A DNA stretch of 42,034 nucleotides. Source: an uncultured Candidatus Saccharibacteria bacterium (GTDB lineage: Bacteria; Patescibacteriota; Minisyncoccia; Minisyncoccales; PEYH01). The notes beneath the pieces are model-generated. The model searched no databases, was not told the DNA's origin, and worked only from the letters and a program-made list of their open reading frames with translations. Made by a program: the position numbers and the translations under genes. Within the stretch, counting starts at the first letter, position 1; each line of letters starts with the position of its first letter. Below, one piece after another: positions 4,288 to 22,892 of this stretch. Where the stretch lies: assembly GCA_964530855.1 (NCBI GenBank), contig CAZHBV010000001.1, forward strand, positions 1-42,034. Direction: 5' to 3'.

Positions 4288-4334
4288 ATACAAAAATAAA
4301 AGAGAAAAGACAAAACTCCAATTACCACAAATGG

Positions 4335-4380: not shown

Positions 4381-4743
4381 TTAACAGGTTAAATGGAAGA
4401 GTCCGATCACTTTCTTTTCTCTTCCTTCTTCCTCTTTAGATGCTTCTAATTGAATATTAAATGTCTTTATAGCCTCTTGGGTTGAGTCAATAACCAGTTC
4501 TATTCCTTGGTCTTTAATTAATTTCTTTGCTCTTGGAGTAACTTTAGCCATTCCATACGCACCGGTTCCTATAACAATCATTTCTGGCTTTTTTGAAACA
4601 GCCCTTGCCACATCTTTAAAATCAATTATGTGACTCTCTTCTCTTTGCCATTGCAAAACCTCGCCTGTCCACCTTACCTCAACATCAAAATTATATCTTT
4701 TTTTATCTATAATAATTTGACCAAATTTATATTCCTCAATCAT
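4381..4743 (-). CDS. Mth938-like (DUF498/NDUFAF3-like) domain protein
   Basis: 120 aa. EMIVIGTGAYGMAKVTPRAKKLIKDQGIELVIDSTQEAIKTFN matches the Mth938-domain pattern. Confidence 0.65.
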   Translation of the reverse strand: MIEEYKFGQIIIDKKRYNFDVEVRWTGEVLQWQREESHIIDFKDVARAVSKKPEMIVIGTGAYGMAKVTPRAKKLIKDQGIELVIDSTQEAIKTFNIQLEASKEEEGREKKVIGLFHLTC

Positions 4744-5548
4744 TCTTGAGTTTAATTATTGTAATTTCTGGTTTGGCATTAAATCTAAAAGGAAGAAATG
4801 TCCAACCAATTCCTCTATTTACATAAAGCCATTTATAATCTTCTCCAAAAAACCCACTTTTATATTTTCTGTCATATTTTAAAGGTAAAATTAAATTAGA
4901 TACGAGTGGAAGATTTATTTGTCCCCCATGAGTGTGGCCACATAGAACTAATACATTATTAAAATTAACCTTTCTAAAAATTTCAGGCGAATGTGCCAAA
5001 AGAATTTTGGGTATTTTCATATCTACTCCTTCAACTGCTTTATCTAATTGATCGAACCCTAAATGAGGATCATCAACACCTATTAAATATACTCCATCAA
5101 CTAAAACAGAGCGGTTATTTAGAATTTGAATTTCTTTCTTTTTTAAAATTTCTATCAATTTTTTAAGATTTTTATTTCTATGTTCGTGATTACCAAAGAC
5201 AATATAAATTTTTTTCTTAGGAATTCGAGAAAGTATCTCTAAAAATTGATCAAGCTCTTTCCACTTTTTGGTTGTCCAATCTATTAAGTCACCTGTGATA
5301 AAAATGTAATCAGGGTTTATTTCTTTTAACTTTTTAAGGGTTTTCCTTTCTCTTTCTGAAAAAGCCCTAAAATGAATGTCTGAAATTTGAACAAAGGTTT
5401 GCTCTTCCCCTTCAAAAGGAAGGTTTTTAAACTTTACTTCCAGGGTAGTTATTTCGATTGAATTTATTTCAATCATCCCCATATAGAGAATTCCTCCTAT
5501 AATAACTGCTGGGAATATAAGCATAATAAACATTTTAAACTTTCTCAT
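4736..5548 (-). CDS. Membrane-anchored metallophosphoesterase (YkuE/YaeI-like)
   Basis: N-terminal TM helix followed by ISDIHF, ITGDLID, GNHE and GHTHGGQ, the calcineurin-like phosphoesterase motifs. Confidence 0.85.
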   Translation of the reverse strand: MRKFKMFIMLIFPAVIIGGILYMGMIEINSIEITTLEVKFKNLPFEGEEQTFVQISDIHFRAFSERERKTLKKLKEINPDYIFITGDLIDWTTKKWKELDQFLEILSRIPKKKIYIVFGNHEHRNKNLKKLIEILKKKEIQILNNRSVLVDGVYLIGVDDPHLGFDQLDKAVEGVDMKIPKILLAHSPEIFRKVNFNNVLVLCGHTHGGQINLPLVSNLILPLKYDRKYKSGFFGEDYKWLYVNRGIGWTFLPFRFNAKPEITIIKLKND

Positions 5549-5549
5549 T

Positions 5550-6659
5550 TTAGGTCAAAATTAAGAAAATTTCTAAAATAACTCCGGCTAATAAAAATAG
5601 AGGTAGAAAATATAAAAATGGGTTTATTCTTTGTTGTTTAAGATGTAATGCTACTGCTTTTCTATAAAGAAATATATGAATAAAGCCTTCAATCCCGATG
5701 GCAATTGCCCCGCAAAGACTTAAAATCAAAGTAAAATTTTTAAAGCCAAAGAAATAAAATAAAAGAGGAATGCCTGTGGCTAACAAAAAAGATGTTTCTT
5801 TCTTAAATTTTAAATCATACAAAAAAACTTTTTTAATTGTCAGGCCTAAAGTGAGGTAAGAGGTAAAACAGGTAATCACGCCGAAAAGATAAAAGACCCA
5901 CAAAACCTTTTTGCCAAGGACCGAAACAAGACCTGAAAGAGCATCTTGGGTTGTGTTTTTACCACATGTGCCGACAATTATTATTATAAAAAGAATATAG
6001 ATCATTGCTGAGAACAGAATTCCAGAAATAACAATTCTCTTTAGATAATCCTCTTTCTTTTTTAACATTTCTGCTATTTCCGGTACAACTGCCGATCCCC
6101 ATAAAGAAAACAAGATAACTCCATAGGGATAGAATGAAAATTTAGAGAAAGATAGATTATTTGGGTTAATAAAACCGGCGGTTTTTATCAATAAAAATAT
6201 CAAAAGACCAAAGAAAAAAGTATTGATTAATGTCTCAGACCAAGAAATGCTTTTAATTCCCTTAAAAATTAAAAAACTCCCCAAAGCAAAAAAAGTTAAT
6301 ACATAATAAAGCTCTTTTCCTCCCAAAAGAGGACAAAAAAGTTTATATAAAAATCCTCCACCAACAATTAAATATACAAGTTGGGCCCCGAAAAGACCAA
6401 GGAATGTAGAAAATAAAGATAAAATCCCCCACTTTTTTCCCAAGTACTGAAATACATACCCCGGAAAACGATGTTTCTCTTTTGTTAAGCAGCAAACTTT
6501 TCCAAACAAAAGATGGATTACAATTGAAATGGCACCCAAGAGAGCAAAATAAAGAAAAACAAAAAAGAGACCAATATCTTTGACGGCCCAGGGTAAGGCG
6601 AAAATGCCCACGCCGATGATCGTGCCTACAAAAACAAAAAATGCTTCTGTGATTCTCAT
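5550..6659 (-). CDS. Amino acid permease-like polytopic membrane transporter
   Basis: 369 aa with about 11 hydrophobic segments. The N-terminus, FVGTIIGVGIFALPWAV, is typical of the amino-acid/aromatic amino-acid permease superfamily. Confidence 0.55.
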   Translation of the reverse strand: MRITEAFFVFVGTIIGVGIFALPWAVKDIGLFFVFLYFALLGAISIVIHLLFGKVCCLTKEKHRFPGYVFQYLGKKWGILSLFSTFLGLFGAQLVYLIVGGGFLYKLFCPLLGGKELYYVLTFFALGSFLIFKGIKSISWSETLINTFFFGLLIFLLIKTAGFINPNNLSFSKFSFYPYGVILFSLWGSAVVPEIAEMLKKKEDYLKRIVISGILFSAMIYILFIIIIVGTCGKNTTQDALSGLVSVLGKKVLWVFYLFGVITCFTSYLTLGLTIKKVFLYDLKFKKETSFLLATGIPLLFYFFGFKNFTLILSLCGAIAIGIEGFIHIFLYRKAVALHLKQQRINPFLYFLPLFLLAGVILEIFLILT

Positions 6660-7093
6660 TCTTTTCTTAAAATTCTTTTTTCAATTAAAAGGACCCCTGC
6701 TAGAATTAAAAGACCCAAAGAAGTAGCAAAGACAGCCAAAGAATACATCTTTAGCCCTATTGCTACCCCAATCGCTGCTACTAACCAAAGCCCAGCAGCG
6801 GTGGTCAAACCTTCTACATGATCCTTTCTAAAAATAATTACTCCACTTCCAATAAAACCAATCCCAATGGCAACTGCTTGAATAACTCTAAGAGGATCCA
6901 TATTCATCCTGCACTCTTTAAAAATGTTAGGGGCCAAAAAGGCTAATATAGTAAAAAGACAAGAAGCAATACAGACAAGCATGTAGGTTCTCAGACCTGC
7001 TTCTTTTTTTCCAAACTCTCTCTCAAGTCCCAAGAGCCCGCCCAAAACCGCTGCTAAGATTATTTGTAAAATTATCTCTAGAGCTTCTTTCAT
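6656..7093 (-). CDS. mgtC: MgtC/SapB family membrane protein
   Basis: LGGLLGLEREFGKKEAGLRTYMLVCIASCLF is the MgtC signature. There is a 4-nt overlap with the downstream permease gene. Confidence 0.85.
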   Translation of the reverse strand: MKEALEIILQIILAAVLGGLLGLEREFGKKEAGLRTYMLVCIASCLFTILAFLAPNIFKECRMNMDPLRVIQAVAIGIGFIGSGVIIFRKDHVEGLTTAAGLWLVAAIGVAIGLKMYSLAVFATSLGLLILAGVLLIEKRILRKE

Positions 7094-7094
7094 T

Positions 7095-7487
7095 TTATAA
7101 TTTAAAAACTTTGTATCCTTCTCTTACTTTTTCTTTAACTTTTAATCCTATTTCTTCCCCTTTCTTGGCTTTTTTTATCTTTTGGTGATTTATTTCCATT
7201 GAGTTTACCTTCTGTTTAAAATCCACCTCACCTCCAACTATTCTTATTTGGTCTCCTATTTTAATGGGAGCACTTAATTTTATTGCAGCCACTTTAATTT
7301 TATCAAAATAATGAGTTACCCTTCCTATCAATCTTTCCTTTTTCGAAACTCTCTTTTCTGTTACCTTTCTCTTCTTTTGTTTTGATCTTATCTTCCTTGT
7401 TTTTCCGCCTCTCTTTACCCTCTTTTTCTTCTTTGTCTTTTTAGTTACTTTAGATTTCTTCTTAGATTTGCTTTTCTTTTTAGCCAT
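7095..7487 (-). CDS. Small protein with a Lys/Arg-rich N-terminal tail plus an EF-Tu-domain-2-like beta-barrel ('translation elongation factor-like protein')
   Basis: The first ~50 aa are almost entirely K/R/S/T. The C-terminal GRVTHYFDKIKVAAIKLSAPIKIGDQIRIVG...FKQKVNSMEINHQKIKKAKKGEEIGLKV resembles stand-alone EF-Tu D2-like barrels. Confidence 0.5.
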   Translation of the reverse strand: MAKKKSKSKKKSKVTKKTKKKKRVKRGGKTRKIRSKQKKRKVTEKRVSKKERLIGRVTHYFDKIKVAAIKLSAPIKIGDQIRIVGGEVDFKQKVNSMEINHQKIKKAKKGEEIGLKVKEKVREGYKVFKL

Positions 7488-7541
7488 ATTTTTAGTTTAT
7501 TATGTTAATTGACCTTTAAATTAATTTTATCATAAAATTTA

Positions 7542-7614
7542 TGCCCCTGGGAGGAATCGAACCTCCATCTGAGGCTCCGGAGGCCTCTGTTCTATCCAAT
7601 TGAACTACGGGGGC
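7542..7614 (-). tRNA. tRNA-Arg (anticodon CCG)
   Basis: Hand-folded 73-nt cloverleaf: GCCCCCG TA GTTC AATTGGATA GAAC A GAGGC CTCCGGA GCCTC AGAT GGAGG TTCGATT CCTCC CAGGGGC A. D, anticodon and T stems are perfect, there is one C6-A67 mismatch, and CCA is not encoded. Confidence 0.85.
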
Positions 7615-8333
7615 AAATTTTGGCGGACGGGACTACAGGGGCGGGCCATAATAAATAAATTACTCTCTTTTTTGGACCTTTTTAAGATTTTTGCTTCTAA
7701 AACTCTAAACCCTGCTTTTTCTAAGGTATTTTTTAATGAGTTTAAAGTAAAAACATGAAGATATCTTTGTATTATAATATTGCCTTTTGAATCTTTCCAT
7801 GGCAGAAATATATCAAAAAAACCTAATTTTGATTTACCAATGAGTTTAAATATTGTATATTTTAAAAGAAGCCATTTAACTCTCTTTTTTGGTAAAAGAT
7901 TCCATACAGTAAGAATCAAGGTACCGTCTTTTTTAAGCACTCTTTTTATCTCTTTTAAAAATTGCATTCTGTACTTAAAAGAAGGAATGTGATGAAAAAC
8001 AGAAAGGCAAAAAACTTTATCAAAAAAATGATCTTGAAATGGTAAAGATAAGGGGGAGGTGAGAAAGAATTTGCCCTGGGGATAGTTTTTTTTCGCAATC
8101 TCTATCATTTTTGAGGATACATCCGCCCCAAAATATTCAGCATCGTTTTTGATCTCAAAAAGTCGCCCATTTCCACAGCCGAGATCTAAAATTTTCTCAC
8201 CCTTTTTTATAAACTTTTTCAAATATAGGACATCCTTCGGAATATAACTTCTTGTTCTTGAAAAATGATTAGTAATCTTATTATAATCCTCCTTTGTTTT
8301 TTCTAATAAAAATTGAGCGTATTCCTCTTTCAT
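7605..8333 (-). CDS. Class I SAM-dependent methyltransferase, Trm9/ALKBH8-MT-like (candidate tRNA U34 carboxymethyl methyltransferase)
   Basis: YNKITNHFSRTRSYIPKDV...ILDLGCGNGR (Trm9 has the HFSxTR...D-GCGNG pattern), SVFHHIPS, TLILTVW, and DIFLPW...RYLHVFTLNSL...AGF (Trm9-like DVFVPW...RYYH.F). The last 10 nt overlap the 5' end of the tRNA. Confidence 0.6.
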   Translation of the reverse strand: MKEEYAQFLLEKTKEDYNKITNHFSRTRSYIPKDVLYLKKFIKKGEKILDLGCGNGRLFEIKNDAEYFGADVSSKMIEIAKKNYPQGKFFLTSPLSLPFQDHFFDKVFCLSVFHHIPSFKYRMQFLKEIKRVLKKDGTLILTVWNLLPKKRVKWLLLKYTIFKLIGKSKLGFFDIFLPWKDSKGNIIIQRYLHVFTLNSLKNTLEKAGFRVLEAKILKRSKKESNLFIMARPCSPVRQNLPP

Positions 8334-13817: not shown

Positions 13818-14972
13818 TCATAATAAAACTGTATCGAGTAACCTTCTTCTTGCTGCTTCTTTCTCCTTTAGCGAAATTTTGGCTTTTTGAATAGCTTTTT
13901 CTACAATCTCGATTGTTTTATCATAAGTTGGCCTAGATACAGGATAAGGAGTGCCATCTTTGCCTCCATGAGCAAAAGAAAATCTCGCTGGATCTTCATA
14001 AGAAGGTTTTTTGCCATATATTAACTCCGCCACCAAAGTTAAAGCCCTCAAAGTTTTTGGACCTACTCCTTTAATTCTAACCAATTCCTCGAAAGTTTTT
14101 GGTTTTAGAAAATGGGCTGCTTCAATTGTTTTTCTTAGCCTTCTTAAATCAAATTTCTCTTGTAATACTGGGTGCCAATGAAACTCTACGTCCTTTAGGC
14201 TCATTAAAGTAAGCTGTCCGATTTGTTGTTTTTTAATTAAAGAGGTGGAATGTTTCTGAAGAGAAGAAAAATTTCTTAAAAAAGTTTTTGGTTCTTCCCT
14301 CACCATTTCTGTACAAATTTCTCTTGTTTCTTTGCTTTTTTTAGCAATCAAATTTAAGGGTTTCACCTTTCTTTGAGTTGCAATACCTGAATGTGGTTCT
14401 TCTGTGAAATCTTTTACCTTATCTGATAACCAATGATATCTTCTTGCGGTTGCATTTTTATCATTTAATCCTTGTTGAATTACTACCCATTTTCCGCTAT
14501 GAGTAAAAACTAAATTATGATGATATAAAGTATAGCCATCTTGTAGCGCAGAATTGTCAATTTTTGCAGAAATTTTTGAGGCATAAATTAAACTTTCAAT
14601 CCTCTTCTGATCCAATCCTATCACTTCTCCCCATCGTTTAATTTGCTCTGGTGTTTTTAAAGAAGTTTTTCCTTTCCCTCCACAAACAAAAATTCCCAAA
14701 TTTTTTTCAATCCCTCGTATTCCTCCTTTCAAAGCTGCTAAAGTTAAAGTAGTCAATCCTGACGAATTCCAATCAAAGGCAATAACACAACCCAAACTTT
14801 GAAACCAAACAGGATCTGAAATCCTTCTTAAAAATTCTTCTTCTCCAAACTCCTCAACAATGGCAATTAAAATTGCCCTAGACAATTTTTTCATTCTTTC
14901 AAAAAGCCAAGGAGGGCAATGTCCTGTATCTAATGGAAGTGTAGCAATTCCTGTTCTCATTAATTTAATCAT
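13818..14972 (-). CDS. DUF763 family protein (with a C-terminal helix-hairpin-helix)
   Basis: RTGIATLPLDTGHCPPWLFERMKKLSRAI matches my memory of the DUF763 N-terminus. LVRIKGVGPKTLRALTLVAELIYG is an HhH motif. Confidence 0.55.
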   Translation of the reverse strand: MIKLMRTGIATLPLDTGHCPPWLFERMKKLSRAILIAIVEEFGEEEFLRRISDPVWFQSLGCVIAFDWNSSGLTTLTLAALKGGIRGIEKNLGIFVCGGKGKTSLKTPEQIKRWGEVIGLDQKRIESLIYASKISAKIDNSALQDGYTLYHHNLVFTHSGKWVVIQQGLNDKNATARRYHWLSDKVKDFTEEPHSGIATQRKVKPLNLIAKKSKETREICTEMVREEPKTFLRNFSSLQKHSTSLIKKQQIGQLTLMSLKDVEFHWHPVLQEKFDLRRLRKTIEAAHFLKPKTFEELVRIKGVGPKTLRALTLVAELIYGKKPSYEDPARFSFAHGGKDGTPYPVSRPTYDKTIEIVEKAIQKAKISLKEKEAARRRLLDTVLL

Positions 14973-14973
14973 A

Positions 14974-14998
14974 ACAAAAAGCTGGCTTTTCAGCCAGC
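14974..14998 (-). terminator. Rho-independent terminator after the NIF3-like gene
   Basis: On the minus strand: GCTGGCT GAAA AGCCAGC followed by TTTTT (stem arms at 14981-14987 and 14992-14998). Confidence 0.7.
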
Positions 14999-15026
14999 GC
15001 CAATAAATAAGTTCGCAGCAAAGAGT

Positions 15027-15968
15027 TTAGTTTCTTGAAACCCTTATTAAACCTGAACAAGGAATTATCTCAATTCCTCTTCTTTCTAATTCATCTAAAA
15101 ACAGATTCACTCCTAAAGAATCGGAAGACATATGGCCTGCAATTACTACATTTATCAAAGCATTTTCAGCCTCTTTTTTATGTTCCTCTGAAATATGCAT
15201 TCCGACAACTGTGCCAATTCCAACCTGAGCCATTTTTTCATAAAGTTTTGGAGAACCTTCTGTTCCTCCAGTAATTTCTGTTAAGGCAATTTTACCACAT
15301 CGGTTTTCTTTATCTCCAACAAAAATCTTAGGGCCGGCTCCAAGTTTTGTGGCTTTTTTGTACTCAGAAATTGATTTTAAGAGAGTTAAAAGATCTTTTA
15401 ATCTTTCTGGATTTTCTCTCTCAATCACTTCTTTTAAAAACCGTGCCGCTAAATTATCACAAACGGTATGAAGACACATTAAGTTTATTTTTAACAACTT
15501 TGCACAATCAACAGTTCTTTGATGATTTACCCTGTTTAGACCTCTTGCTACCTCAGAAATTCTTTCTTTCATTAATTTTTCGGCAATATTAATAGGAACT
15601 CCATATTGAGCCAATACATCGCATTGAAGTTCCATTACCTCATGTAATGTTGCAAGGGCCTTTCCTAAAGGGTGATGAGAAATTACAAGATCAACCCCCA
15701 ATTCTTTTGCCAACAAAATCTCTGCTGGCTCAATATCAATACCAACTAATACTTTTTTTATCTCTTTATCCTCGGCAATATGAAGAATTCTTGAATCTGA
15801 AAAAGGGTTTTCCAAACTCTCTAAATCAAACTCTTCTTTCTCTTCTTCTGACATTTTTTCATACACTTCTTTTCTTCTTTGAAGTAACTTCTCAATACCA
15901 GCCCTCCCTCTAAAATCGCTTTCTATTCCTTTTTGAATTGCTAATTTGTAGATTTCTCGAATCAGCAT
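15027..15968 (-). CDS. NIF3-like (dinuclear metal centre) family protein
   Basis: 313 aa with VDLVISHHPL and VIAGHMSSDSLG, consistent with the NIF3/YbgI family. The N-terminal ~60 aa are atypical. Confidence 0.5.
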   Translation of the reverse strand: MLIREIYKLAIQKGIESDFRGRAGIEKLLQRRKEVYEKMSEEEKEEFDLESLENPFSDSRILHIAEDKEIKKVLVGIDIEPAEILLAKELGVDLVISHHPLGKALATLHEVMELQCDVLAQYGVPINIAEKLMKERISEVARGLNRVNHQRTVDCAKLLKINLMCLHTVCDNLAARFLKEVIERENPERLKDLLTLLKSISEYKKATKLGAGPKIFVGDKENRCGKIALTEITGGTEGSPKLYEKMAQVGIGTVVGMHISEEHKKEAENALINVVIAGHMSSDSLGVNLFLDELERRGIEIIPCSGLIRVSRN

Positions 15969-16221: not shown

Positions 16222-19200
16222 TTACTCTCCTTTAATTACTGCCAAAGGCACAAGTCTTGCAACTTTTTTAGAAAGTCCTGCTTTGTGCACCACATCTACT
16301 ACTTCATCTACATTTTTATAAGCCTGGGGTGCTTCTTCTGCCACACCTTTAAAAGAATAGCATTTTACAATAATTCCTTTTTGCTCTAATGTTTCTACCA
16401 CATTTCTCCCAGAAATTGTTTTAATGGCTTTAGCGCGAGACATAGTTCTACCTGCACCATGACAAACTGTATGCCATGCCTCTTTTGATTTCTCTTCTCC
16501 CACAAGAACATAAGATGCTGTTCCCATTGACCCCGGAATAATTACCGGCTGCCCAGTTTCTTTATATTTTTCGGGAAGTTCTGAGTGTCCCGGAGGAAAG
16601 GCTCTTGTTGCTCCTTTTCGATGGACAATTAGTTTCATTTTCTTTCCATCAACCTCATGCTCTTCAATTTTGGCAATATTGTGCGCGACATCATACAAAA
16701 GTGTTAATTTTGCACTCTCGCCTAAAACTTTCTTCCAGGCTTTTCTTACATAATAAGAAATCATATGCCGATTTGCCCAGGCAAAATTACAGGCAGCCGA
16801 CATTGCCCTAAAAAACCTTTGCCCCTCCGGAGAATTAAAAGGAACACAGCACAATTCTTTATCTGGTAATCTTATTCCATATTTTGGATAAATAGGCATC
16901 AAAATTCTTAAGTAATCTGTGCAGTTTTGATGGCCTAAGCCTCGAGAACCTGTATGAATTAATACTACAACCTGCCCTTTGAATAAACCAAATTTCTTTG
17001 CGACTTCCTCATCATAAATTTCATCTACCCTATCAATTTCGCAGAAATGATTTCCGGATCCGAGAGTTCCAACTTGATTTCTCCCTCTGTTTTTGGCTTT
17101 CTCTGAAACGCAACTTGCATCGGCTGTCTCCATTCTTCCTTTGTACTCACAATTCTCAACATCTTCTTTTTCTCCATAACCTTTTTCCACCAAATAAGGC
17201 ACTCCTCCTTCTAAAATTCTGTTAATTTGCTCAATTGATAACTTAACTTTCCTTCCTCTTCCCAACCCAGATGGAACTTCTTTTTGAATCTCTTCTGCTA
17301 ATTTATCTAAATAAGGCCTGATTTCTTTTTCTGTATATTCTGATTTTAGCAATCTAACCCCGCAGTTCTGATCAAATCCGATTCCGCCAGGAGAAATTGC
17401 TCCATCTGGAAATTTGGTAGCAGCAACTCCTCCAATACAATTTGAAACCACAAAGTTATTAGCAATAAAATTATGAGAAGGATGGTTTATAGTAAAATCA
17501 TAAACCCAATCTTTATGAGAAATCCTTTTAATTTCTGCAATTTCATCCCATACTATCCCACTTTTACCTAATTTAGAAGTTACTGTTTTAAAATACTCTT
17601 GAAAAGTGGGAAAATTAGCAGGAACCTGAGGAGAAATATTCTTCAATCTTTTATTAATTTTCCAACACACATCAATTATAAATCTTTTTGTTAAAGGATT
17701 GCCGGTAGCAAGTTGCAAGGCTATTCTCTGGTAACTTAAACCTTTTTTTAATAAATTAGGAACAATTTTGTCAATTACTTCTCTTTTCTCTTCTAATATT
17801 TTTTGTTTGTATTTGAGATATTGAAGGGCAACATTAGCGACAAAACTGCGTTTTTTATTATATTCAAAACCAATTTTGGACCAGAGATTAATTAAACTTT
17901 CTATTTTTGAAGAAAAAACTAAATCTAATCCCCAAGAAATCTCCCCCTTAACATTAATATGCTTTTTTCGCTGCTTTATATAAATTGTTTCCACGCCAAA
18001 TTCTTTAAGAAGTTTAGATATATCTTCTAAAAACAACCTACCATTAGAAATTAACTTTTCAGCCTTATTCATTTGTAATACTGGGCAATTAAACATCGTT
18101 TTTCTTCCTTTTCTTGGATGAGGAGTTCTTAACTCTGCTCCAAAAAAACTAGCAAGAAACAATCGCTTTTGCCACAAAGGACATTTAAAAATCCATTTTG
18201 GAACTCGATATCTCTGAAACACTTTTTTACCTTTTGGCACCCCTAAGGTTTGAAGAAGCACCAAGAAACTGCTTGCGTTCACACAAAAAGAGTGCTTGAT
18301 ATAAATTTTCTTATTTCCTTTATAGATTCTTTCTTCCTTTTGAATATGAATTGGCGAAGGAGTATAGCCAATTTTTTTAATGTCTTTTCTAATCTCTTCT
18401 AAATCTTCTTTCTTTCCAAAAAATCCCACAATTCCATCACCTCTCTTTCCAATAAAATTCATTGTTCCATCACCAAAAACAAATCCCATTATTTTTAGAA
18501 GATAAGGAAGTTTGGGATGGTTGTAAGTTAAAGGCAGAAGAGAGCGTTTTTTTAATTTTTGTAAAATTATTCTAAATCGAGGAGTGTCTTCTTTAACACC
18601 TATTTTATTAAGAGTTTTTTTAATATCCTTTTCGTCAATTATAATCTCATTTGAAGGCTCCTCATAAGGAACTCCTTCAAAAGGGAAAATTGCAATTTTA
18701 TCTCCGGGATTTAGCTTTTCTAAAACCATCATTCCTTTAGGAGTATAAAATGGATGGTCTCCAGTAGCCACAATTTCTCTACCAGTTTTAGTAATTACTT
18801 TAAATACTTTACTTTTTGGTTTTATTTTCAAGAATTTTTGAATTGAGGCCTCAACTAACTTTTTTAATTTAAAATCTACAATTTTTAAAGTAAAATCTTT
18901 CTCCTTTTTCTGAAAATCCTTAATTGGAAGATAAAAACCAAAATTACTCAAAATTTTAGTGTCTCCTTTTAAACAAAAACCATAGCCCTCATGGGCATCT
19001 GGCATCGCTAAAGCATATTTTACAATTCCTGGAAGAGTAGTGATGTTTACCAATTGATGAAGTGATTTATCTCTAAAACAGTCTTCCAACAATTTCTTGG
19101 ATGCATAAATTCTTGCCGGGACTCTCATATCCGACCTGAAACTTTTTGGAATTTCCCAAAGATAATCGTTAATTTTTATAAAATCTTTTTTAGAAATCAT
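16222..19200 (-). CDS. rtcB: RNA 3'-phosphate/2',3'-cyclic phosphate ligase RtcB, interrupted by an intein
   Basis: The 75-aa N-extein (...YALAMPDAHEGYGF) plus the 405-aa C-extein (CIGGVAATKF...GFDQNCGVRL...GSGNHF...IHTGSRGLGH...HNIA...HRKGAT...GSMG...CHGAGR) add up to 480 aa, a normal RtcB length with its metal and GMP-His motifs. Confidence 0.95.
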   Translation of the reverse strand: MISKKDFIKINDYLWEIPKSFRSDMRVPARIYASKKLLEDCFRDKSLHQLVNITTLPGIVKYALAMPDAHEGYGFCLKGDTKILSNFGFYLPIKDFQKKEKDFTLKIVDFKLKKLVEASIQKFLKIKPKSKVFKVITKTGREIVATGDHPFYTPKGMMVLEKLNPGDKIAIFPFEGVPYEEPSNEIIIDEKDIKKTLNKIGVKEDTPRFRIILQKLKKRSLLPLTYNHPKLPYLLKIMGFVFGDGTMNFIGKRGDGIVGFFGKKEDLEEIRKDIKKIGYTPSPIHIQKEERIYKGNKKIYIKHSFCVNASSFLVLLQTLGVPKGKKVFQRYRVPKWIFKCPLWQKRLFLASFFGAELRTPHPRKGRKTMFNCPVLQMNKAEKLISNGRLFLEDISKLLKEFGVETIYIKQRKKHINVKGEISWGLDLVFSSKIESLINLWSKIGFEYNKKRSFVANVALQYLKYKQKILEEKREVIDKIVPNLLKKGLSYQRIALQLATGNPLTKRFIIDVCWKINKRLKNISPQVPANFPTFQEYFKTVTSKLGKSGIVWDEIAEIKRISHKDWVYDFTINHPSHNFIANNFVVSNCIGGVAATKFPDGAISPGGIGFDQNCGVRLLKSEYTEKEIRPYLDKLAEEIQKEVPSGLGRGRKVKLSIEQINRILEGGVPYLVEKGYGEKEDVENCEYKGRMETADASCVSEKAKNRGRNQVGTLGSGNHFCEIDRVDEIYDEEVAKKFGLFKGQVVVLIHTGSRGLGHQNCTDYLRILMPIYPKYGIRLPDKELCCVPFNSPEGQRFFRAMSAACNFAWANRHMISYYVRKAWKKVLGESAKLTLLYDVAHNIAKIEEHEVDGKKMKLIVHRKGATRAFPPGHSELPEKYKETGQPVIIPGSMGTASYVLVGEEKSKEAWHTVCHGAGRTMSRAKAIKTISGRNVVETLEQKGIIVKCYSFKGVAEEAPQAYKNVDEVVDVVHKAGLSKKVARLVPLAVIKGE
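17440..18975 (-). mobile_element. 512-aa intein with a LAGLIDADG homing-endonuclease domain inside rtcB
   Basis: It begins CLKGDTKIL (block A Cys1), has block B IVATGDHPFYT, two dodecapeptide motifs (LLKIMGFVFGDGTM and RLFLASFFGAELRT) and block F/G VYDFTINHPSHNFIANNFVVSN. The +1 residue is the Cys of CIGGV. Codon boundaries were checked on the DNA (TGT at 18975-18973, AAT at 17442-17440). Confidence 0.9.
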
Positions 19201-19221
19201 GGTTGATACTCTATTATATCT

Positions 19222-19252
19222 AAAAAAAATAGAGGGACAAGTGCCCCTCTAT
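19222..19252 (-). terminator. Rho-independent terminator between the unknown 356-aa gene and rtcB
   Basis: On the minus strand: ATAGAGGG-GCACTTGT-CCCTCTAT followed by TTTTTTTT. The stem includes the TAG stop (19249-19251) of the upstream gene. Confidence 0.65.
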
Positions 19253-20319
19253 CTCACGTATCTTTCTACCTCTGCCTCTTTAAATAAAGAGACGCATTTT
19301 TTCCAAAATTCGCTCTGGGTATCAACTATGTAATAGACCTTCTCTCCTTCTATCTTTTTAATAAAATCTGTCTCATCTATAAGCGCCCCAAGGGCTAATT
19401 GCAGGTTATCTTTTGAAACTATCTTTTTAAGGTTATCATTTCTCCAAATAGCCTCATTTGCGTAAAGATAAGTCTCCCAGATAGTATTTACTAAATTATG
19501 AAAACCTCTTTTATGGGTCTTTGTCTTAAGTTCCGGAAGAGCCCTTATTACAATTAGAAGAAATAACTCATATGGATCTTCAGAAGGTATGGTAAGCCTC
19601 TCTTTCTTTATTCTCTGAACTATTAATGTAAATGGATTTTCTTCTAAAGCCATGGGGTGTTTCTCTCCTCTTTTTTGAAGCCTGATAAAATATCTTCTCT
19701 CTGGATCCTTTATTAGCCTTCCCTCAAGGCTCATGGAAATTAAATTCTTTTCTTTAAAGAAAGATGCTATTTCTCTGGATCTTCGCATCAACCTTTGGTC
19801 GTTTGTAATTAGGAAAATTGTATCAATTCTTTCATTTGGAAAGAGACTGTTTTCCAACAATTTTGTTATTCTCTCATCGGCATCCGTGCAAGAAATGCAT
19901 ATAAACCCGGCTTCCTCGAGCATATTTCTTGTTCCGTCTGAAAGGTATCCCTCACAAAAGGCGAAGGCTCCTATCTGAGGCTTTCCTGTTAATTCTACTA
20001 AACGATCAATCAATCTTTGTCCTGGAAAATTTAGTTTTTCGTCTCTCAAAGCAAGATACAAATTTAGCCAATCTAAAACAACTGCAAACCCTTTTTGAAA
20101 GGATGGTTGAGATATTAATTTGTCAAAGATCTTTTGATTCTCTTCTAATATATTTACAAGCGTATCCTGGTTTCTTTGAACTTGATAGATTATCTTTTTC
20201 AGTTCTTCAACAGATCTATCGATTTTTTCAGTCATTTTACTAAAAGACTCTATCTTCCTTTCTAAATCCTTCAACCATCGACTAAAAAACTCCTGAAGAT
20301 TTTTTCTCATTTCCTTCAC
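19249..20319 (-). CDS. Uncharacterised protein: N-terminal coiled coil, PIN-like (NYN / YacP-Rae1-like) putative nuclease domain, and a C-terminal possible winged-helix domain
   Basis: 356 aa. FAVVLDWLNLY (D-x-x-N), ICISCTDADERITKLL and TIFLITNDQRLMRR reproduce the acidic-residue spacing of NYN/YacP domains. The first ~70 aa are heptad-like. A strong SD (AGGAGGTGA) lies 7 nt before the ATG. Confidence 0.4.
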   Translation of the reverse strand: MKEMRKNLQEFFSRWLKDLERKIESFSKMTEKIDRSVEELKKIIYQVQRNQDTLVNILEENQKIFDKLISQPSFQKGFAVVLDWLNLYLALRDEKLNFPGQRLIDRLVELTGKPQIGAFAFCEGYLSDGTRNMLEEAGFICISCTDADERITKLLENSLFPNERIDTIFLITNDQRLMRRSREIASFFKEKNLISMSLEGRLIKDPERRYFIRLQKRGEKHPMALEENPFTLIVQRIKKERLTIPSEDPYELFLLIVIRALPELKTKTHKRGFHNLVNTIWETYLYANEAIWRNDNLKKIVSKDNLQLALGALIDETDFIKKIEGEKVYYIVDTQSEFWKKCVSLFKEAEVERYVR

Positions 20320-20383
20320 CTCCTGTTCTATTATCTTTTTAACCCCTCAAATAAATTTTGCAAGGGTTATTAAGACTGTCTTT

Positions 20384-20788
20384 TTAAACATCAAACAGAA
20401 TTATTGCTACATAATCTCCTTTTTTCTCTTTAATCTCTAAGTCATGATAGGTAACCCCTTTAATAATTAATTCTTTCTTTTTTATTTTTTTTCCAAAAAG
20501 TTCTCCCTCAAGGGTATTATCAGAGAATTTTTTAAATTTTATATTAAAATAAGCTTCGTTCTCTGTTTCGCTTAAATATAAAATCTCACTTAAAAAATCT
20601 ACAAGAAGTTGTAGAATATCTGGAGATTGAATTTTAATCTTTCTCTTGACTACTTTTCCCTCCGACTTTATTCCGGCTGCTTCAAACATCGCTCTCATCG
20701 CATTTAAAAAAAGTTCTCTTTTTGAGGAGCCAAAAACTTTTATTTTTAAATCTGCTTTATGAGGAAGAATTTCGAAAAATTTTTTCAT
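20384..20788 (-). CDS. Archease (RtcB activator)
   Basis: 134 aa. FEILPHKADLKIKVFGSSKRELFLNAMRAMFEA at the N-terminus and IKGVTYHDLEIKEKKGDYVAIILFDV at the C-terminus match the archease pattern (HTADi...G / KavTYH.l.v.....a.vv.DV). Confidence 0.8.
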   Translation of the reverse strand: MKKFFEILPHKADLKIKVFGSSKRELFLNAMRAMFEAAGIKSEGKVVKRKIKIQSPDILQLLVDFLSEILYLSETENEAYFNIKFKKFSDNTLEGELFGKKIKKKELIIKGVTYHDLEIKEKKGDYVAIILFDV

Positions 20789-20812: not shown

Positions 20813-21637
20813 TCAAATATTAATCCATAATTTTTTGGCCCAAATAAATTGGGGGACATCTTTTTCTTTTATCTTGGCCAAAGAAGGATCAATTTTTTTA
20901 AGTAGCAAAAATCCTGCTTTGTCTAATTCAAAAGGGTCTTTTCCTGCTAACATATATCCCAAATCCCTTTCTTTACCTCCATGTCTTTTTTCTTGAGCGA
21001 AAATTAAAGTTTTGATTGCATCAACAATAAAAAAATCAACCTTTTTAACTTTATTTAAAAGCACAATCGCCTTATTTATATTTTTAAACGGTAAATGATA
21101 ATAAAGTTTCTTTTTTGGCGCCAAAAATCCATATTGATTTTTAAAAGCACCGGTAATTTTGCAAACCCGATGGGTTTTCAAAACAGGTAAAGAAATGATA
21201 TAGTCAAATTCAAAAATTATCTCTGGAATCGAAAAACTATAACCTTCAATTTCAATTTTTTTCTTTGGAAGTTTATTTAAGTTGAGACATAAAACTCCAA
21301 AATCATCACAAACTTTTTTAATGGGATGGTTTTGAATAATCTTATCTGAATCTCCTGCATCAAAGGCAGGACCGTCTGCAACTACTATTTCTTCTCTCTT
21401 CTTTATCTCTAAAAGAAGTTTTAGACATTCTTTTATTGTTTCTGGGTGGGTTGTTGTTGGATATTCCTCATATGAAACAATATTTGGTTTTAAAAGGATT
21501 TTCTTTTTATTTTTTACTCCTTCAAAAATTCTTCCCCACAAAAATGCTTCTTTGATAAATTCTCTTCTTTTTCTTGTTTCTTTAAGAAGAATTTCCATAA
21601 ATTTTTTTAAATTCTTCTTTAATAATCCTTCTCTCAT
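20813..21637 (-). CDS. DUF362 domain protein
   Basis: ILLKPNIVSYEEYPTTTHPETIKECLKLLLE is the characteristic DUF362 N-terminal motif. The track ORF starts at 21682, which would overlap the upstream Mur ligase gene by 101 nt. Internal Met codons at 21637 or 21598 are more plausible starts. Confidence 0.6.
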   Translation of the reverse strand: MREGLLKKNLKKFMEILLKETRKRREFIKEAFLWGRIFEGVKNKKKILLKPNIVSYEEYPTTTHPETIKECLKLLLEIKKREEIVVADGPAFDAGDSDKIIQNHPIKKVCDDFGVLCLNLNKLPKKKIEIEGYSFSIPEIIFEFDYIISLPVLKTHRVCKITGAFKNQYGFLAPKKKLYYHLPFKNINKAIVLLNKVKKVDFFIVDAIKTLIFAQEKRHGGKERDLGYMLAGKDPFELDKAGFLLLKKIDPSLAKIKEKDVPQFIWAKKLWINI

Positions 21638-22892
21638 TCCAGGGAATCTTTTTTCCTTTTTTGAAACACACCCATGGCTCACATCCTTTACCGGTGATAA
21701 TTACAACATCATTTTCTTTTGCTGTTTTGAGCGCCTTTTTTATTGCTTCTTTTCTGTTAATAATTTTCTCAACTTTTTCTTTTTGTCGAATTCCTTTTTC
21801 AATATCCTCCAAGATCTTTCTTGGATCCTCATCGTAAGGATCTTCGTTTGTCAAAATAATCTTCTGACAATACCGCGAGGCAATTTCTCCTAATTTTGGT
21901 CTTTTTTGTTTGTCTCGCCCTCCCCCACATGCACCAAATACACAAATCATTTTGTTTGGAGAAAATAAAGTTTGAATTTCTCGATATACTTCTTCTAAAC
22001 TCTCTGGCACAACTGCGTAGTCAATAATAACCAAAAAGGGATGCTCTATGACAATTTCCATTCTTCCGGGTATGTTACTTATTTTCTCCAAACCCATTTT
22101 AGATGTTTCTATATCTATTTGTTGAGAGAGGGCGCATGCTATGGCTGCTAAAGCATTGTAGATATTGAATTTACCTAATAGTTTTAAATGAATTTTTGAA
22201 CCCTTCAGAAAAAAACTTATCCCATCTTGCGATTCAACTATATCTTTGGCTTTAACAACTTCATCTACTTCATTAAAGAGTTCTTTCTTTGTCTCTCTGC
22301 ATGAAGTTTCCTGACAAAACCCGTATTTCTTTTTTGCTGGAAATTGTAGGAAGTATTCTGCGTTTTTATCATCGAGATTGACTATATGAATGTTCTTTGT
22401 GACTTTAAATAATTTTGCTTTTGCTTTTCTGTAATTCTCGAACCCTCTATGGGCTTCTATGTGCTCGGGTAAAAGGTTTGTGAGAATGGCTACATCAAAT
22501 TTTATGAATCTGTGCCTATGTTGGAGAATACCTTGAGAAGTAACTTCCAAGACCACATAATCACACCCTGCTTTTTTTGCTTCTCTTAAAAATCTCTGGA
22601 TTAAAAAACCTTCGGGCATGGTCATTTTTAGTAAATTGGGCCACTCTTTTTTATCTAATTTAAATCTAATGGAAGAAATAGAGGCTACCCTAAACCCTGC
22701 CTCTTCTAAAATTTTTGTTATAAACTCAACCGTAGTTGATTTTCCATTTGTTCCTGTAACTCCAATAACTTTAAGATTTCTTGATGGAAAACCAAAAAAC
22801 ACTGCTCCCAAAAAGGTCAGCATAAGGTGGTAGGTATTGATTAAAAAAGTGGGTAATATTCTTTTCAGAAGATTTTTTATTATAAAGATCAT
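21582..22892 (-). CDS. Mur ligase family protein, MurE-like (UDP-MurNAc-tripeptide synthetase)
   Basis: VIGVTGTNGKSTT (P-loop), GRMEIV, DYAVVPESLEEVY and VFGACGGGRDKQKRPKLGEIA correspond to the MurE central and C-terminal motifs. Confidence 0.75.
   Translation of the reverse strand: MIFIIKNLLKRILPTFLINTYHLMLTFLGAVFFGFPSRNLKVIGVTGTNGKSTTVEFITKILEEAGFRVASISSIRFKLDKKEWPNLLKMTMPEGFLIQRFLREAKKAGCDYVVLEVTSQGILQHRHRFIKFDVAILTNLLPEHIEAHRGFENYRKAKAKLFKVTKNIHIVNLDDKNAEYFLQFPAKKKYGFCQETSCRETKKELFNEVDEVVKAKDIVESQDGISFFLKGSKIHLKLLGKFNIYNALAAIACALSQQIDIETSKMGLEKISNIPGRMEIVIEHPFLVIIDYAVVPESLEEVYREIQTLFSPNKMICVFGACGGGRDKQKRPKLGEIASRYCQKIILTNEDPYDEDPRKILEDIEKGIRQKEKVEKIINRKEAIKKALKTAKENDVVIITGKGCEPWVCFKKGKKIPWNERRIIKEEFKKIYGNSS

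What the first reader, a model, noticed from the sequence alone, without database searches (positions are those of the whole stretch)
16222..20788. Archease, an unknown coiled-coil/PIN(NYN-YacP-like) protein, and intein-bearing RtcB: a candidate undescribed RNA processing or repair cassette
Seen in the sequence:
- Three co-oriented minus-strand genes occur in the order archease (20384-20788), a 356-aa ORF (19249-20319) and rtcB (16222-19200).
- The 356-aa ORF has its own strong SD (AGGAGGTGA).
- It has a heptad-rich N-terminus.
- Its central segment (FAVVLDWLNLY, CTDADERI, LITNDQRLMRR) reproduces the acidic-residue spacing of NYN/YacP (Rae1-type) PIN-like nucleases.
- It also has a ~120-aa C-terminal domain that I cannot place.

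Established knowledge: RtcB seals 3'-P or 2',3'-cyclic-P ends to 5'-OH ends, and archease is its dedicated activator.

Inference: a putative RNase wedged between activator and ligase suggests a dedicated cut-and-reseal or RNA-damage-response module. One possibility is excision of insertions from rRNA or tRNA, which are frequent in reduced CPR-type genomes.

Caveat: metal-dependent PIN/NYN nucleases normally leave 3'-OH and 5'-P ends, which RtcB cannot join. The middle protein may therefore be a targeting, sensing or antagonistic partner rather than the producer of RtcB substrates.
Basis: partly seen in the sequence, partly recalled or inferred. Interest (0 to 1): 0.78.

Follow-up and report, generated by a model that had tools for sequence, protein, structure and literature searches.

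The report
NYN ribonuclease gene between archease and RtcB
The unknown gene between the RNA ligase RtcB and its activator archease encodes a rare, fast-evolving ribonuclease of the known NYN type, and it stays next to these two genes in one group of ultra-small (CPR-like) bacteria, which hints at a shared RNA-processing role without proving one.

Summary
The three minus-strand genes exist as described: archease (20384-20788), a 356-aa ORF "X" (19249-20319) and intein-bearing RtcB (16222-19200). X more likely starts at the ATG at 20310 (353 aa).

X has a 70-residue amphipathic N-terminal helix, a NYN nuclease domain and an unplaced, winged-helix-like C-terminal domain. The NYN domain is of the LabA/MARF1 type (PF01936), not the YacP/Rae1 type. 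A 13-sequence AlphaFold model (pLDDT 85) matches the NYN structures 2qip and MARF1. All NYN catalytic positions are kept, and the fourth acidic residue sits at a different position in the two clades.

The family is tiny: 11 clusters among 1.8 billion representative proteins. In 12 of 13 informative contexts X lies next to archease and/or RtcB, in at least five gene orders.

Three points weaken the "cassette" reading:
- X looks like a self-contained transcription unit, with its own -10 box, strong SD and a terminator hairpin conserved in all 14 spacers folded.
- An unrelated Mur ligase gene is still found in the same neighbourhood in both X clades.
- NYN chemistry gives 3'-OH/5'-P ends, which RtcB cannot join.

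Best reading: an active, lineage-specific RNase working beside the ligase rather than feeding it. This is a new variant of a known kind, of moderate interest.

The parts
20384..20788 (-). archease gene (134 aa)
   Evidence: PF01951 E=2.7e-29, full-length match 1-136/136
20330..20335 (-). -10-like box GATAAT in the archease-X spacer; possible promoter of X's own
   Evidence: Conserved in the same spacer in L001, L008, L020 and L021. The distant clade has (TG)nTAAAAT and L019 has TTGACT-N17-TATAAT. Inference only: the consensus scan did not list it.
20316..20324 (-). Shine-Dalgarno AGGAGGTGA of X
   Evidence: The same AGGAGGTGA-N5-ATG arrangement recurs across the family.
19249..20310 (-). X coding sequence from the probable ATG start (353 aa plus stop). 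The mechanical ORF from GTG 20319 is 356 aa, and residue numbers in this report use that 356-aa numbering.
   Evidence: dN/dS 0.14-0.23 against relatives; databases name it only 'hypothetical protein'
20110..20316 (-). N-terminal long amphipathic helix (residues 2-70), probable coiled coil
   Evidence: The model gives a single helix H2-70 with pLDDT 80-91. Heptad a/d positions are 71% hydrophobic against 22% elsewhere, and this is the least constrained part (dN/dS 0.25-0.54). It is absent in P0013.
19672..20103 (-). NYN (LabA/MARF1-type PIN-like) nuclease domain, residues 73-216. Active-site codons: D83 20071-20073, N86 20062-20064, E123 19951-19953, D148 19876-19878, T172 19804-19806, D174 19798-19800.
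   Evidence: 6 of 13 family members hit PF01936, best E=1.4e-13. The family profile hits 2qip at 3.3e-6 and MARF1 NYN at about 5e-3. Foldseek: 2qip TM-target 0.59, rmsd 3.0 A; MARF1 5yaa_C TM-target 0.61; both probability 1.00. Viral NYN proteins are top hits. Motif table.
19252..19647 (-). C-terminal domain (residues 225-356), helical plus beta-hairpin, winged-helix-like; conserved ENPF, RGFxNLVxxIW, YY and S..W motifs
   Evidence: Model elements H276-285, H295-300, H303-316, E320-324, E328-332, H337-348. No significant Pfam or PDB sequence match; only STN1 winged-helix at E=0.36. dN/dS 0.12-0.14.
19222..19255 (-). Intrinsic-terminator-like hairpin (13-bp stem, 4-nt loop, includes X's stop codon) followed by T8
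   Evidence: -22.6 kcal/mol, z=-4.0, none of 200 shuffles folds as well. A hairpin plus T-run follows X's stop in all 14 spacers folded, whatever gene is downstream.
19213..19240 (-). Promoter-like TTGTCC-N16-TATAAT overlapping the hairpin. The -10 box ends 12 nt before the rtcB ATG, and no SD is present.
   Evidence: 10 of 12 consensus matches. A TATAAT or TAAAAT box a few nt upstream of the annotated rtcB ATG is present in L001, L007, L010 and L018; L008 has the same box but its called rtcB start lies about 60 nt further downstream.
16222..19200 (-). rtcB (992 aa precursor; 480-aa extein of the long, archaeal-like form)
   Evidence: PF01139 E=5e-163; NF038162 1108 bits against a cut-off of 1150
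17440..18975 (-). Intein in RtcB (residues C76-N587, +1 residue C588), inserted at GYGF|C
   Evidence: Alignment to intein-free RtcB of L001; Intein_splicing and intein_Nterm hits

Best explanation
X is an active, metal-dependent endoribonuclease of the NYN (LabA/MARF1-type, PIN-like) family. It has an unusual three-part build: an N-terminal ~70-residue coiled-coil helix (probably for oligomerisation or partner binding), the NYN catalytic domain, and a conserved winged-helix-like C-terminal domain that probably holds the RNA substrate.

It is a rare, fast-diverging protein confined to one CPR-like bacterial lineage. There it stays next to the archease/RtcB RNA-ligation genes.

I propose that it works on the same stable RNAs (tRNA or rRNA precursors, or damaged RNAs) as the ligase but at a different step. 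Because it should leave 3'-OH/5'-P ends, it would not make RtcB substrates. It would instead trim or open ligated intermediates, or destroy excised or unrepairable fragments.

It is expressed as its own unit (own -10 box, strong SD, terminator), so its dose can be set independently of the ligase.

Shown here: the fold, the catalytic residues, purifying selection, and the conserved adjacency. Inferred: RNase activity, end chemistry, the role of the C-terminal domain, and any functional coupling to RtcB/archease.
For: - Homology: a profile of the window clade finds full-length relatives at E=3e-28 to 1e-11. Six family members hit PF01936 NYN, best E=1.4e-13.
- Solved structures: the family profile hits 2qip at 3.3e-6 and MARF1 NYN at about 5e-3.
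- Fold: the AF2 model has pLDDT 85. Foldseek top specific hits are 2qip (TM-target 0.59, rmsd 3.0 A) and MARF1 NYN (TM-target 0.61), and viral NYN proteins also rank first.
- Active site: D83/N86, D148 and T172/D174 sit at the positions of MARF1 D178/N181, D246 and S270/D272, each aspartate shown to be essential there. They also align with the D14/D92/D115 triad of 2qip.
- Fourth acidic residue: it is E123 at the end of beta2 in the 7 members that lack the second Asp of SGDxD, and it is that second Asp in the 5 members that lack E123. The distribution is perfectly complementary, which argues for a maintained catalytic site.
- Selection: dN/dS is 0.10-0.21 in the NYN domain and 0.12-0.14 in the C-terminal domain.
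- Linkage: 12 of 13 informative contexts have archease and/or RtcB adjacent, in five orders: archease-X-RtcB, archease-DUF362-X-RtcB, YbjQ-X-RtcB, X-archease-RtcB and X-archease-GT2.
- Precedent for a PIN-type nuclease acting after RtcB: archaeal circular pre-rRNA made by EndA plus RtcB is linearised by Nob1 or an unknown endonuclease (PMC10515664).
- NYN neighbours elsewhere also point to tRNA/rRNA processing (PMC5499597).
Against: - No biochemical data exist for any family member.
- The window protein itself hits no Pfam or PDB NYN entry. The assignment is transitive, through distant family members and a model built on their alignment.
- X has its own promoter-like box and is followed by a terminator-like hairpin in all 14 spacers folded, so it is not obviously co-transcribed with rtcB.
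- A functionally unrelated Mur ligase gene is still in the neighbourhood in both clades (L018, L024). Adjacency may therefore be inherited rather than selected.
- The most distant member (P0013) sits next to trmD with no archease or RtcB. In L009 a glycosyltransferase, not RtcB, follows archease.
- No candidate RNA substrate was found in the window or in related loci.
Confidence: 0.45

Rival explanations
1. X is an ordinary, lineage-specific NYN RNase involved in general RNA turnover or maturation, with no functional tie to RtcB/archease. The adjacency is synteny inherited from a common ancestor of this lineage.
For: - X is a self-contained unit with its own -10 box, SD and a conserved terminator.
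- A Mur ligase gene is still found in the same block in both clades, although it has no known link to RNA ligation.
- All contexts come from fairly related genomes, with RtcB 68-81% identical.
- P0013 is next to trmD rather than archease/RtcB, and in L009 RtcB does not follow archease.
Against: - Proximity survives local rearrangements: X lies on either side of archease, and DUF362 or RNase HII is inserted in some lineages.
- It also survives X divergence down to 20-27% identity.
- In the distant clade only 25-42 nt, filled by the hairpin and T-run, separate X from archease. The archease-RtcB genes there probably depend on read-through from X.
Confidence: 0.3
2. Cut-and-reseal module: X cleaves a specific RNA, such as an rRNA or tRNA insertion, and archease-activated RtcB rejoins the ends.
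For: - Conserved adjacency to the ligase and its activator.
- CPR rRNA genes often carry insertions: 31% of 16S genes have inserts larger than 10 bp (PMC9698310).
Against: - The NYN/PIN active site is fully conserved.
- Characterised NYN RNases are metal-dependent, and the B. fragilis NYN products are taken by its authors to carry a 3'-OH. By the established mechanism, RtcB needs 3'-P or 2',3'-cyclic-P plus 5'-OH ends.
- No insertion-bearing RNA gene is near any locus.
Confidence: 0.05
3. X is a non-catalytic scaffold or targeting subunit that uses a dead NYN fold, the coiled coil and the winged-helix-like domain to bring RtcB/archease to RNA. [quoted passage not shown]
For: - A long coiled-coil helix and a putative RNA-binding domain.
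- The only member without the helix (P0013) is also the only one not next to archease/RtcB.
- The window clade lost the second Asp of SGDxD and an 8-residue loop before D148.
Against: - All three core Asp, plus the Asn at +3 and the Ser/Thr at -2, are near-invariant.
- The lost Asp is matched by a Glu at the end of beta2 in exactly those members. Such compensation is expected only if catalysis is maintained.
- The NYN domain is strongly constrained (dN/dS 0.10-0.21).
Confidence: 0.07
4. X is a conflict-type (anti-phage or toxin-like) RNase, and its placement beside an RNA-repair ligase reflects an attack-and-repair arrangement.
For: - X diverges much faster than its neighbours: 27% identity against 56-68% in L024, and about 20% against 77% for the RtcB N-terminus in L018.
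- RtcB systems are known to counter ribotoxins, for example RtcB2-PrfH against colicin E3 (papers listed).
Against: - No PADLOC match for four family members.
- No antitoxin-like small partner gene.
- The locus lies among housekeeping genes (RuvA, S20, Mur ligase, NIF3, Fpg, DNA polymerase III delta) in all relatives, not in a variable island.
- Short-range dN/dS is clearly purifying.
- The end chemistry would not give RtcB-repairable breaks.
Confidence: 0.08

Closest known systems
LabA-like NYN proteins (Pfam PF01936, cluster NYN.COG1432; structure VPA0982, PDB 2qip)
   Same: Best sequence-profile hit (E=3.3e-6) and best fold hit (TM-target 0.59, rmsd 3.0 A). The Asp triad aligns, and the first Asp has Asn at +3 and no GYN motif (PMC5499597).
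   Different: The window clade has drifted below Pfam detection. It lost an 8-residue loop and moved the fourth acidic residue to the end of beta2. It also adds an N-terminal 70-residue coiled coil and a C-terminal domain that does not match OST-HTH. The association with archease/RtcB is not among the NYN neighbourhoods listed in PMC5499597.
MARF1 (NYN nuclease plus LOTUS/OST-HTH winged-helix RNA-binding domains)
   Same: Same NYN fold (TM-target 0.61). The catalytic pattern is the same: Asp at the end of beta1 with Asn at +3, an acidic residue at the end of beta2, Asp at the N-terminus of alpha3, and Ser/Thr-x-Asp at the end of beta4. The architecture is also 'NYN followed by a winged-helix-like domain', and in MARF1 that domain is required for cleavage (PMC6217404).
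   Different: MARF1 is a eukaryotic mRNA-decay factor. X's C-terminal domain has no detectable sequence similarity to LOTUS. X has a coiled coil and no RRM.
CRISPR-associated NYN ribonuclease of Bacteroides fragilis
   Same: A prokaryotic stand-alone NYN whose gene sits beside an RNA-processing system. It has the same three conserved Asp. It is a Mn2+-dependent endonuclease whose products the authors take to carry a 3'-OH, and it is proposed to trim RNAs made by another enzyme (bioRxiv 10.1101/2024.04.08.588522).
   Different: The genomic partner differs (type III-B CRISPR against archease/RtcB). It has no coiled coil and no C-terminal domain.
Rae1/YacP (NYN_YacP, PF05991)
   Same: NYN-group PIN-like nuclease.
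   Different: The defining GYN motif after the first Asp is absent (DWLN in the window protein, DWDN in the distant clade). No PF05991 match appeared among the families shown, and no Rae1 structure was among the PDB sequence or fold hits shown.
Archaeal rRNA maturation: EndA, then RtcB (circular pre-rRNA), then the PIN nuclease Nob1 or an unknown endonuclease
   Same: It gives a documented order of action in which a PIN-like, 3'-OH-producing nuclease acts after RtcB. This removes the end-chemistry conflict. The RtcB here is the long, archease-dependent archaeal-like form (PMC10515664).
   Different: X is NYN, not Nob1-type PIN. The host is bacterial (bS20, RuvA, DNA polymerase III delta). No EndA, BHB motif or circular RNA evidence is available here.
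Known bacterial RtcB accessory modules (RtcA/RtcR, RtcB2-PrfH, archease)
   Same: A gene adjacent to rtcB that could specify or complement the ligase's substrate range. Archease-RtcB pairing is a described 'tRNA splicing operon' (PMC3973293 and PMC4604427, listed).
   Different: None of these partners is a NYN/PIN nuclease. In the full-text library searched, the only paper holding both 'NYN domain' and 'RtcB' does not link them.

Membership tests
NYN domain, PF01936 / LabA-MARF1 type (PIN-like superfamily) | Significant sequence match to the family model | tested here: inconclusive
   The window protein alone has no PF01936 hit at E<=1. Its full-length homologues (E=3e-28 to 1e-11 to the window-clade profile) hit PF01936 in 6 of 13 cases, best E=1.4e-13. 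The family profile hits 2qip at 3.3e-6. Membership is therefore transitive.
NYN domain, PF01936 / LabA-MARF1 type (PIN-like superfamily) | PIN-like alpha/beta core superposable on solved NYN domains | tested here: met
   The AF2 model has pLDDT 85, and mostly 84-95 over the NYN core. Foldseek gives 2qip E=6.9e-5, TM-target 0.59, rmsd 3.0 A over 144 columns, and MARF1 5yaa_C TM-target 0.61, rmsd 3.1 A; both at probability 1.00. NYN proteins also top the viral library.
NYN domain, PF01936 / LabA-MARF1 type (PIN-like superfamily) | Four conserved acidic residues (ends of beta1, beta2 and beta4, and N-terminus of alpha3), plus Asn at +3 of the first Asp and Ser/Thr at -2 of the last | tested here: met
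   D83/N86, E123, D148 and T172/D174. D83, D148 and D174 are near-invariant in 12 full-length members. The fourth acid is either E123 (7 members) or the second Asp of SGDxD (5 members), never both and never neither. Reference positions come from PMC6217404.
NYN domain, PF01936 / LabA-MARF1 type (PIN-like superfamily) | Divalent-metal-dependent endoribonuclease activity leaving 3'-OH | not testable with these tools
   Needs purified protein. Inferred from MARF1 and B. fragilis NYN.
NYN_YacP / Rae1 (PF05991) | 'GYN' motif directly after the first conserved Asp (PMC5499597) | tested here: not met
   The window has L-D-W-L-N. Other members have DWxN, DLDN, DGDY or DFEN. None has D-G-Y-N.
NYN_YacP / Rae1 (PF05991) | Sequence or structure match to YacP/Rae1 | tested here: not met
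   PF05991 is absent from the window protein's own table (E<=1) and from the 25 most-matched of the 51 families matched by the 13 members. No Rae1/YacP chain appeared among the PDB profile hits (E<=10) or the top 50 Foldseek hits.
NYN + OST-HTH/LOTUS architecture | C-terminal OST-HTH (LOTUS) domain detectable after the NYN domain | tested here: not met
   None of 12 C-terminal domains matched OST-HTH at E<=10. The C-domain profile found no LOTUS structure in the PDB.
NYN + OST-HTH/LOTUS architecture | Winged-helix fold of the C-terminal domain | tested here: inconclusive
   The model topology (three helices, a beta-hairpin, then a helix; residues 276-348) is winged-helix-like. There is a weak STN1 winged-helix hit at E=0.36.
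Archease-RtcB RNA ligase gene pair ('tRNA splicing operon') | RtcB (PF01139) and archease (PF01951) encoded together | tested here: met
   Both are present and co-oriented, 1.1 kb apart with X between them. The pairing recurs in relatives.
Archease-RtcB RNA ligase gene pair ('tRNA splicing operon') | Co-transcription of the genes, X included | tested here: inconclusive
   A terminator-like hairpin plus T8 and a TATAAT box lie between X and rtcB. In the distant clade the hairpin is the whole X-archease spacer, which implies read-through. RNA data are needed.
Intein-containing RtcB (NCBIfam NF038162) | Score above the curated cut-off, with an intein inside the RtcB extein | tested here: inconclusive
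   1108 bits against a cut-off of 1150, so just below. The intein boundaries C76...N587|C588 are clear and the extein is complete.
Known anti-phage defence or toxin systems (PADLOC) | Match to any PADLOC model | tested here: not met
   No hits for the window protein, P0005, P0010 or P0012 at E<=0.01.

The most novel reading that the evidence does not exclude
In this CPR-like lineage, X is the missing endonuclease of a protein-only, archaeal-style RNA maturation pathway that was carried into bacteria together with the long-form RtcB and archease. In this reading RtcB ligates or circularises tRNA or rRNA intermediates, including those left after removal of the rRNA insertions common in CPR. The NYN enzyme then opens or trims the ligated intermediates to give mature 5'-P/3'-OH ends, much as Nob1 linearises circular pre-16S rRNA in some archaea.
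Probability: 0.12. Interest if true: 0.8.

Novelty: new variant of a known kind. Interest (0 to 1): 0.45.

Why it matters
- Bacterial RtcB has few understood partners and mostly unknown natural substrates. A nuclease that stays beside archease and RtcB would give a concrete handle on what the ligase does in CPR-like bacteria, whose RNA processing (including removal of rRNA insertions) is largely uncharted.
- Bacterial LabA-type NYN proteins are numerous but almost uncharacterised. This subfamily has a clear partner context and an intact active site in which the fourth acidic residue has changed position, which makes it a tractable test case.
- If the linkage turns out to be mere inherited synteny, the result is only a new, rare NYN RNase subfamily. 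That is useful for annotation but not surprising.

Tried and rejected
1. Single-sequence Pfam, NCBIfam and PDB searches with X gave only coiled-coil noise. A 4-sequence profile against the PDB did the same.
2. The AF2 run on the 4-sequence alignment was unusable (pLDDT 45). The 13-sequence alignment fixed this.
3. The YacP/Rae1 assignment was rejected: no GYN motif and no PF05991 or Rae1 match among the results shown.
4. OST-HTH/LOTUS identity of the C-terminal domain is not supported by sequence. I tried to collect NYN-OST-HTH proteins for a profile-profile test, but the last homologue search returned nothing.
5. A defence-system reading found no support: PADLOC gave no hit.
6. The alignment-based homologue search added no new members. 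The genome scan with the broad alignment failed for lack of a conserved stretch. The narrower one found two MAGs, one labelled Candidatus Saccharibacteria.
7. The metagenome hits L025 and L026 are unrelated high-GC NYN proteins with NYN-only similarity of 25-27%. They were set aside.
8. A search for nearby substrate RNAs (tRNA introns, Rfam families) in the window and related loci was empty, apart from one ordinary tRNA-Arg 12 kb away.
9. The Burroughs and Aravind survey of RNA-repair systems is not held in the library, so I could not check whether it lists an RtcB-NYN linkage.

Full report
**Observation.**
The window holds three co-oriented minus-strand ORFs exactly where stated.
- Archease, 20384-20788: PF01951, E=2.7e-29.
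- A 356-aa ORF "X", 19249-20319.
- RtcB, 16222-19200: PF01139, E=5e-163, with an intein domain. The NCBIfam model for intein-containing RtcB scores 1108 bits against a cut-off of 1150.

Alignment with an intein-free relative puts the intein at RtcB residues C76-N587, with C588 as the +1 residue. That leaves a 480-aa extein of the long, archaeal-like form.

The SD AGGAGGTGA is real (20324-20316), but the GTG that opens the mechanical ORF lies inside it. Across the family the arrangement is AGGAGGTGA-N5-ATG, so X almost certainly starts at the ATG at 20310 and is 353 aa. Some public gene calls already use that length. Residue numbers below follow the 356-aa ORF.

**What X is.**
Alone, X matches nothing in Pfam, NCBIfam or the PDB except coiled-coil noise. 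The family is very small:
- four clusters among 5.8 billion proteins;
- eleven clusters when a profile is run exhaustively over 1.84 billion representatives.

The distant members are full-length homologues (E=3e-28 to 1e-11). Six of the 13 aligned sequences hit Pfam NYN (PF01936), best E=1.4e-13. The family profile hits the solved NYN proteins VPA0982 (2qip, E=3.3e-6) and MARF1 (E about 5e-3).

AlphaFold2 on four sequences failed (pLDDT 45). On the 13-sequence alignment it gave pLDDT 85. The model has three parts:
- one helix spanning residues 2-70;
- an alpha/beta core over residues 77-216;
- a helical C-terminal domain with a beta-hairpin.

Foldseek's specific hits are NYN domains. 2qip scores TM-target 0.59 with rmsd 3.0 A, and MARF1 scores TM-target 0.61; both have probability 1.00. 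NYN proteins also top the viral library.

**Active site.**
MARF1 needs four aspartates, at the ends of beta1, beta2 and beta4 and at the N-terminus of alpha3. It also conserves an Asn at +3 of the first Asp and a Ser at -2 of the last (PMC6217404).

X has D83/N86, E123, D148 and T172/D174 at those positions. D83, D148 and D174 are near-invariant.

The fourth acidic residue behaves informatively. The seven members that lack the second Asp of the canonical SGDxD motif (the window clade and P0012) all have a Glu at the end of beta2. The five members with SGDxD have none there. This complementary pattern suggests selection to keep a four-acid metal site, so I consider the enzyme active.

dN/dS against close relatives is 0.14-0.23 overall. 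It is 0.10-0.21 in the NYN domain, 0.12-0.14 in the C-terminal domain and 0.25-0.54 in the N-terminal helix.

**Subtype.**
NYN_YacP is defined by a GYN motif after the first Asp (PMC5499597), and X has DWLN. PF05991 was absent from the window protein's own table and from the most-matched families shown, and no Rae1 chain appeared among the PDB hits shown. X belongs with the LabA-like PF01936 group typified by 2qip.

**Other domains.**
The N-terminal helix has clear heptad periodicity: 71% hydrophobic at a/d positions against 22% elsewhere.

The C-terminal domain carries the most conserved non-catalytic motifs (ENPF, RGFxNLVxxIW, YY, S..W). It has no significant sequence match, only STN1 winged-helix at E=0.36.

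Its predicted topology is winged-helix-like. That recalls the common NYN-OST-HTH architecture, in which the winged helix recruits RNA, and MARF1, where LOTUS is required for cleavage. No OST-HTH similarity was detectable, so this remains inference.

**Neighbourhood.**
I recovered 13 informative contexts for distinct family members. Twelve have archease and/or RtcB immediately adjacent.

| Members (identity of X to the window protein) | Gene order |
|---|---|
| Window; P0002 and P0003 (74-82%); P0012 (about 20%, downstream ORF 77% identical to the window's RtcB N-terminus) | archease-X-RtcB |
| P0005 (about 40%) | archease-DUF362-X-RtcB |
| P0004 (about 50%) | YbjQ-X-RtcB |
| P0009, P0010, P0011, L023, L024 (24-27%; the short P0009 and P0011 contigs end within archease) | RNase HII(-)-X-archease-RtcB |
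| P0008 | X-archease-glycosyltransferase |
| P0013 (most distant; lacks the N-terminal helix) | X-trmD, the single exception |

Two GTDB MAGs carry the gene. One is labelled Candidatus Saccharibacteria. The surrounding genes (bS20, RuvA, DNA polymerase III delta, Fpg, Mur ligase) are bacterial housekeeping genes.

**Why the linkage is weaker than it looks.**
1. X appears to be its own transcription unit. It has a conserved -10-like box upstream and a strong SD. A GC-rich hairpin plus T-run starts at or next to its stop codon in all 14 spacers folded, whatever lies downstream. In the window the stem has 13 bp and the fold z-score is -4.0.
2. In the window clade and in P0012, rtcB then has a TATAAT or TAAAAT box a few nucleotides (12 nt in the window) before its ATG and no SD. 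This suggests a separate, nearly leaderless transcript.
3. In the distant clade the hairpin fills the whole 25-42-nt spacer before archease. Archease-RtcB there probably depend on read-through, so the hairpin may act as an attenuator.
4. A Mur ligase gene with no known connection to RNA ligation is still in the same block in both clades. Descent alone can therefore preserve neighbours at this depth.
5. X diverges much faster than its neighbours. Against L024, X is 27% identical while archease is 56%, RtcB 68% and Mur ligase 57%.

**Mechanism.**
NYN and PIN enzymes are metal-dependent hydrolases. The characterised B. fragilis NYN is Mn2+-dependent, and its authors take the products to carry a 3'-OH. 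RtcB joins 3'-P or 2',3'-cyclic-P ends to 5'-OH ends (established knowledge), so X should not create RtcB substrates.

The most coherent coupled model places X at another step on the same RNAs. It could open or trim ligated intermediates, or clear excised or unrepairable fragments. A precedent exists in archaea: EndA and RtcB make circular pre-rRNAs, which are then linearised by the PIN nuclease Nob1 or by an unidentified endonuclease (PMC10515664).

CPR rRNA genes often carry insertions (PMC9698310). However, no rRNA, intron-bearing tRNA or Rfam element lies in the window or in the loci scanned. The substrate is therefore unknown.

**Probabilities for the readings.**
- An active RNase working beside the ligase: about 0.45.
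- An unlinked general RNase kept nearby by descent: about 0.3.
- A conflict-type RNase: about 0.08. PADLOC was negative and the locus is in a housekeeping context.
- A non-catalytic scaffold: about 0.07. The compensated active site argues against it.
- Direct cut-and-reseal: about 0.05.

**Novelty.**
Public databases name these proteins only "hypothetical protein". In the full-text library, the single paper containing both "NYN domain" and "RtcB" does not connect them. The NYN neighbourhoods reviewed in PMC5499597 (SpoU, RNase T, TrmB, Udg4) do not include RtcB or archease. I could not read the main comparative survey of RNA-repair operons.

I classify this as a new variant of a known kind: a NYN RNase subfamily with a coiled-coil/NYN/winged-helix-like build and an unreported, recurrent placement beside archease-RtcB. 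Interest is moderate (0.45). The fold and the linkage are real, but the family is narrow and the functional tie is unproven.

Noticed in passing
window 17440-18975; L023 and L024 (L024 rtcB at 4277-7279): RtcB carries inteins at two different sites in this lineage. The window has one at GYGF|C. L023 and L024 have one 23 residues downstream at DIN|C, directly before the Cys of the conserved NCG motif. L001, L010 and L020 have no intein. Both inteins end in ...NNFVVSN|C, without the usual penultimate His.
   Followed up: partly
L001 6679-7752 and L002 8417-9490: A 357-aa ORF with a weak LAGLIDADG_3 match sits between the NIF3 and DUF763 genes in relatives and overlaps the DUF763 start. It is absent from the same spacer in the window (14973-15026). 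It is probably a free-standing homing endonuclease, another sign of mobile-element traffic in this block.
   Followed up: no
window 19200-19240: rtcB has no Shine-Dalgarno sequence, and a TATAAT box ends 12 nt before its ATG. A similar box lies a few nt before the annotated rtcB ATG in L001, L007, L010 and L018. This suggests a leaderless or near-leaderless rtcB mRNA, in contrast with the strong SD of X.
   Followed up: partly
window 20813-21682: The DUF362 ORF as listed (289 aa from a GTG) overlaps the upstream Mur ligase ORF by 101 nt. Relatives have 261 aa (260 in L010), which fits a start at M29 (window 21598).
   Followed up: partly
window 13818-15968: NIF3-family (DUF34) and DUF763 (with a helix-hairpin-helix motif) genes follow rtcB. 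Both are retained downstream in close relatives (L001, L020), and DUF763 is retained a few genes downstream in L010. Their functions and any relation to RtcB are unknown.
   Followed up: no
L009, L012-L015, L023, L024: In the distant clade a divergently transcribed RNase HII gene lies immediately upstream of X in most loci. The X-archease spacer (25-42 nt) is entirely hairpin plus T-run, so archease-RtcB expression there probably depends on terminator read-through.
   Followed up: partly
window 7541-7615: A single tRNA-Arg(CCG) gene on the minus strand, with no intron. It is the only Rfam or ARAGORN hit in the 42-kb window.
   Followed up: yes
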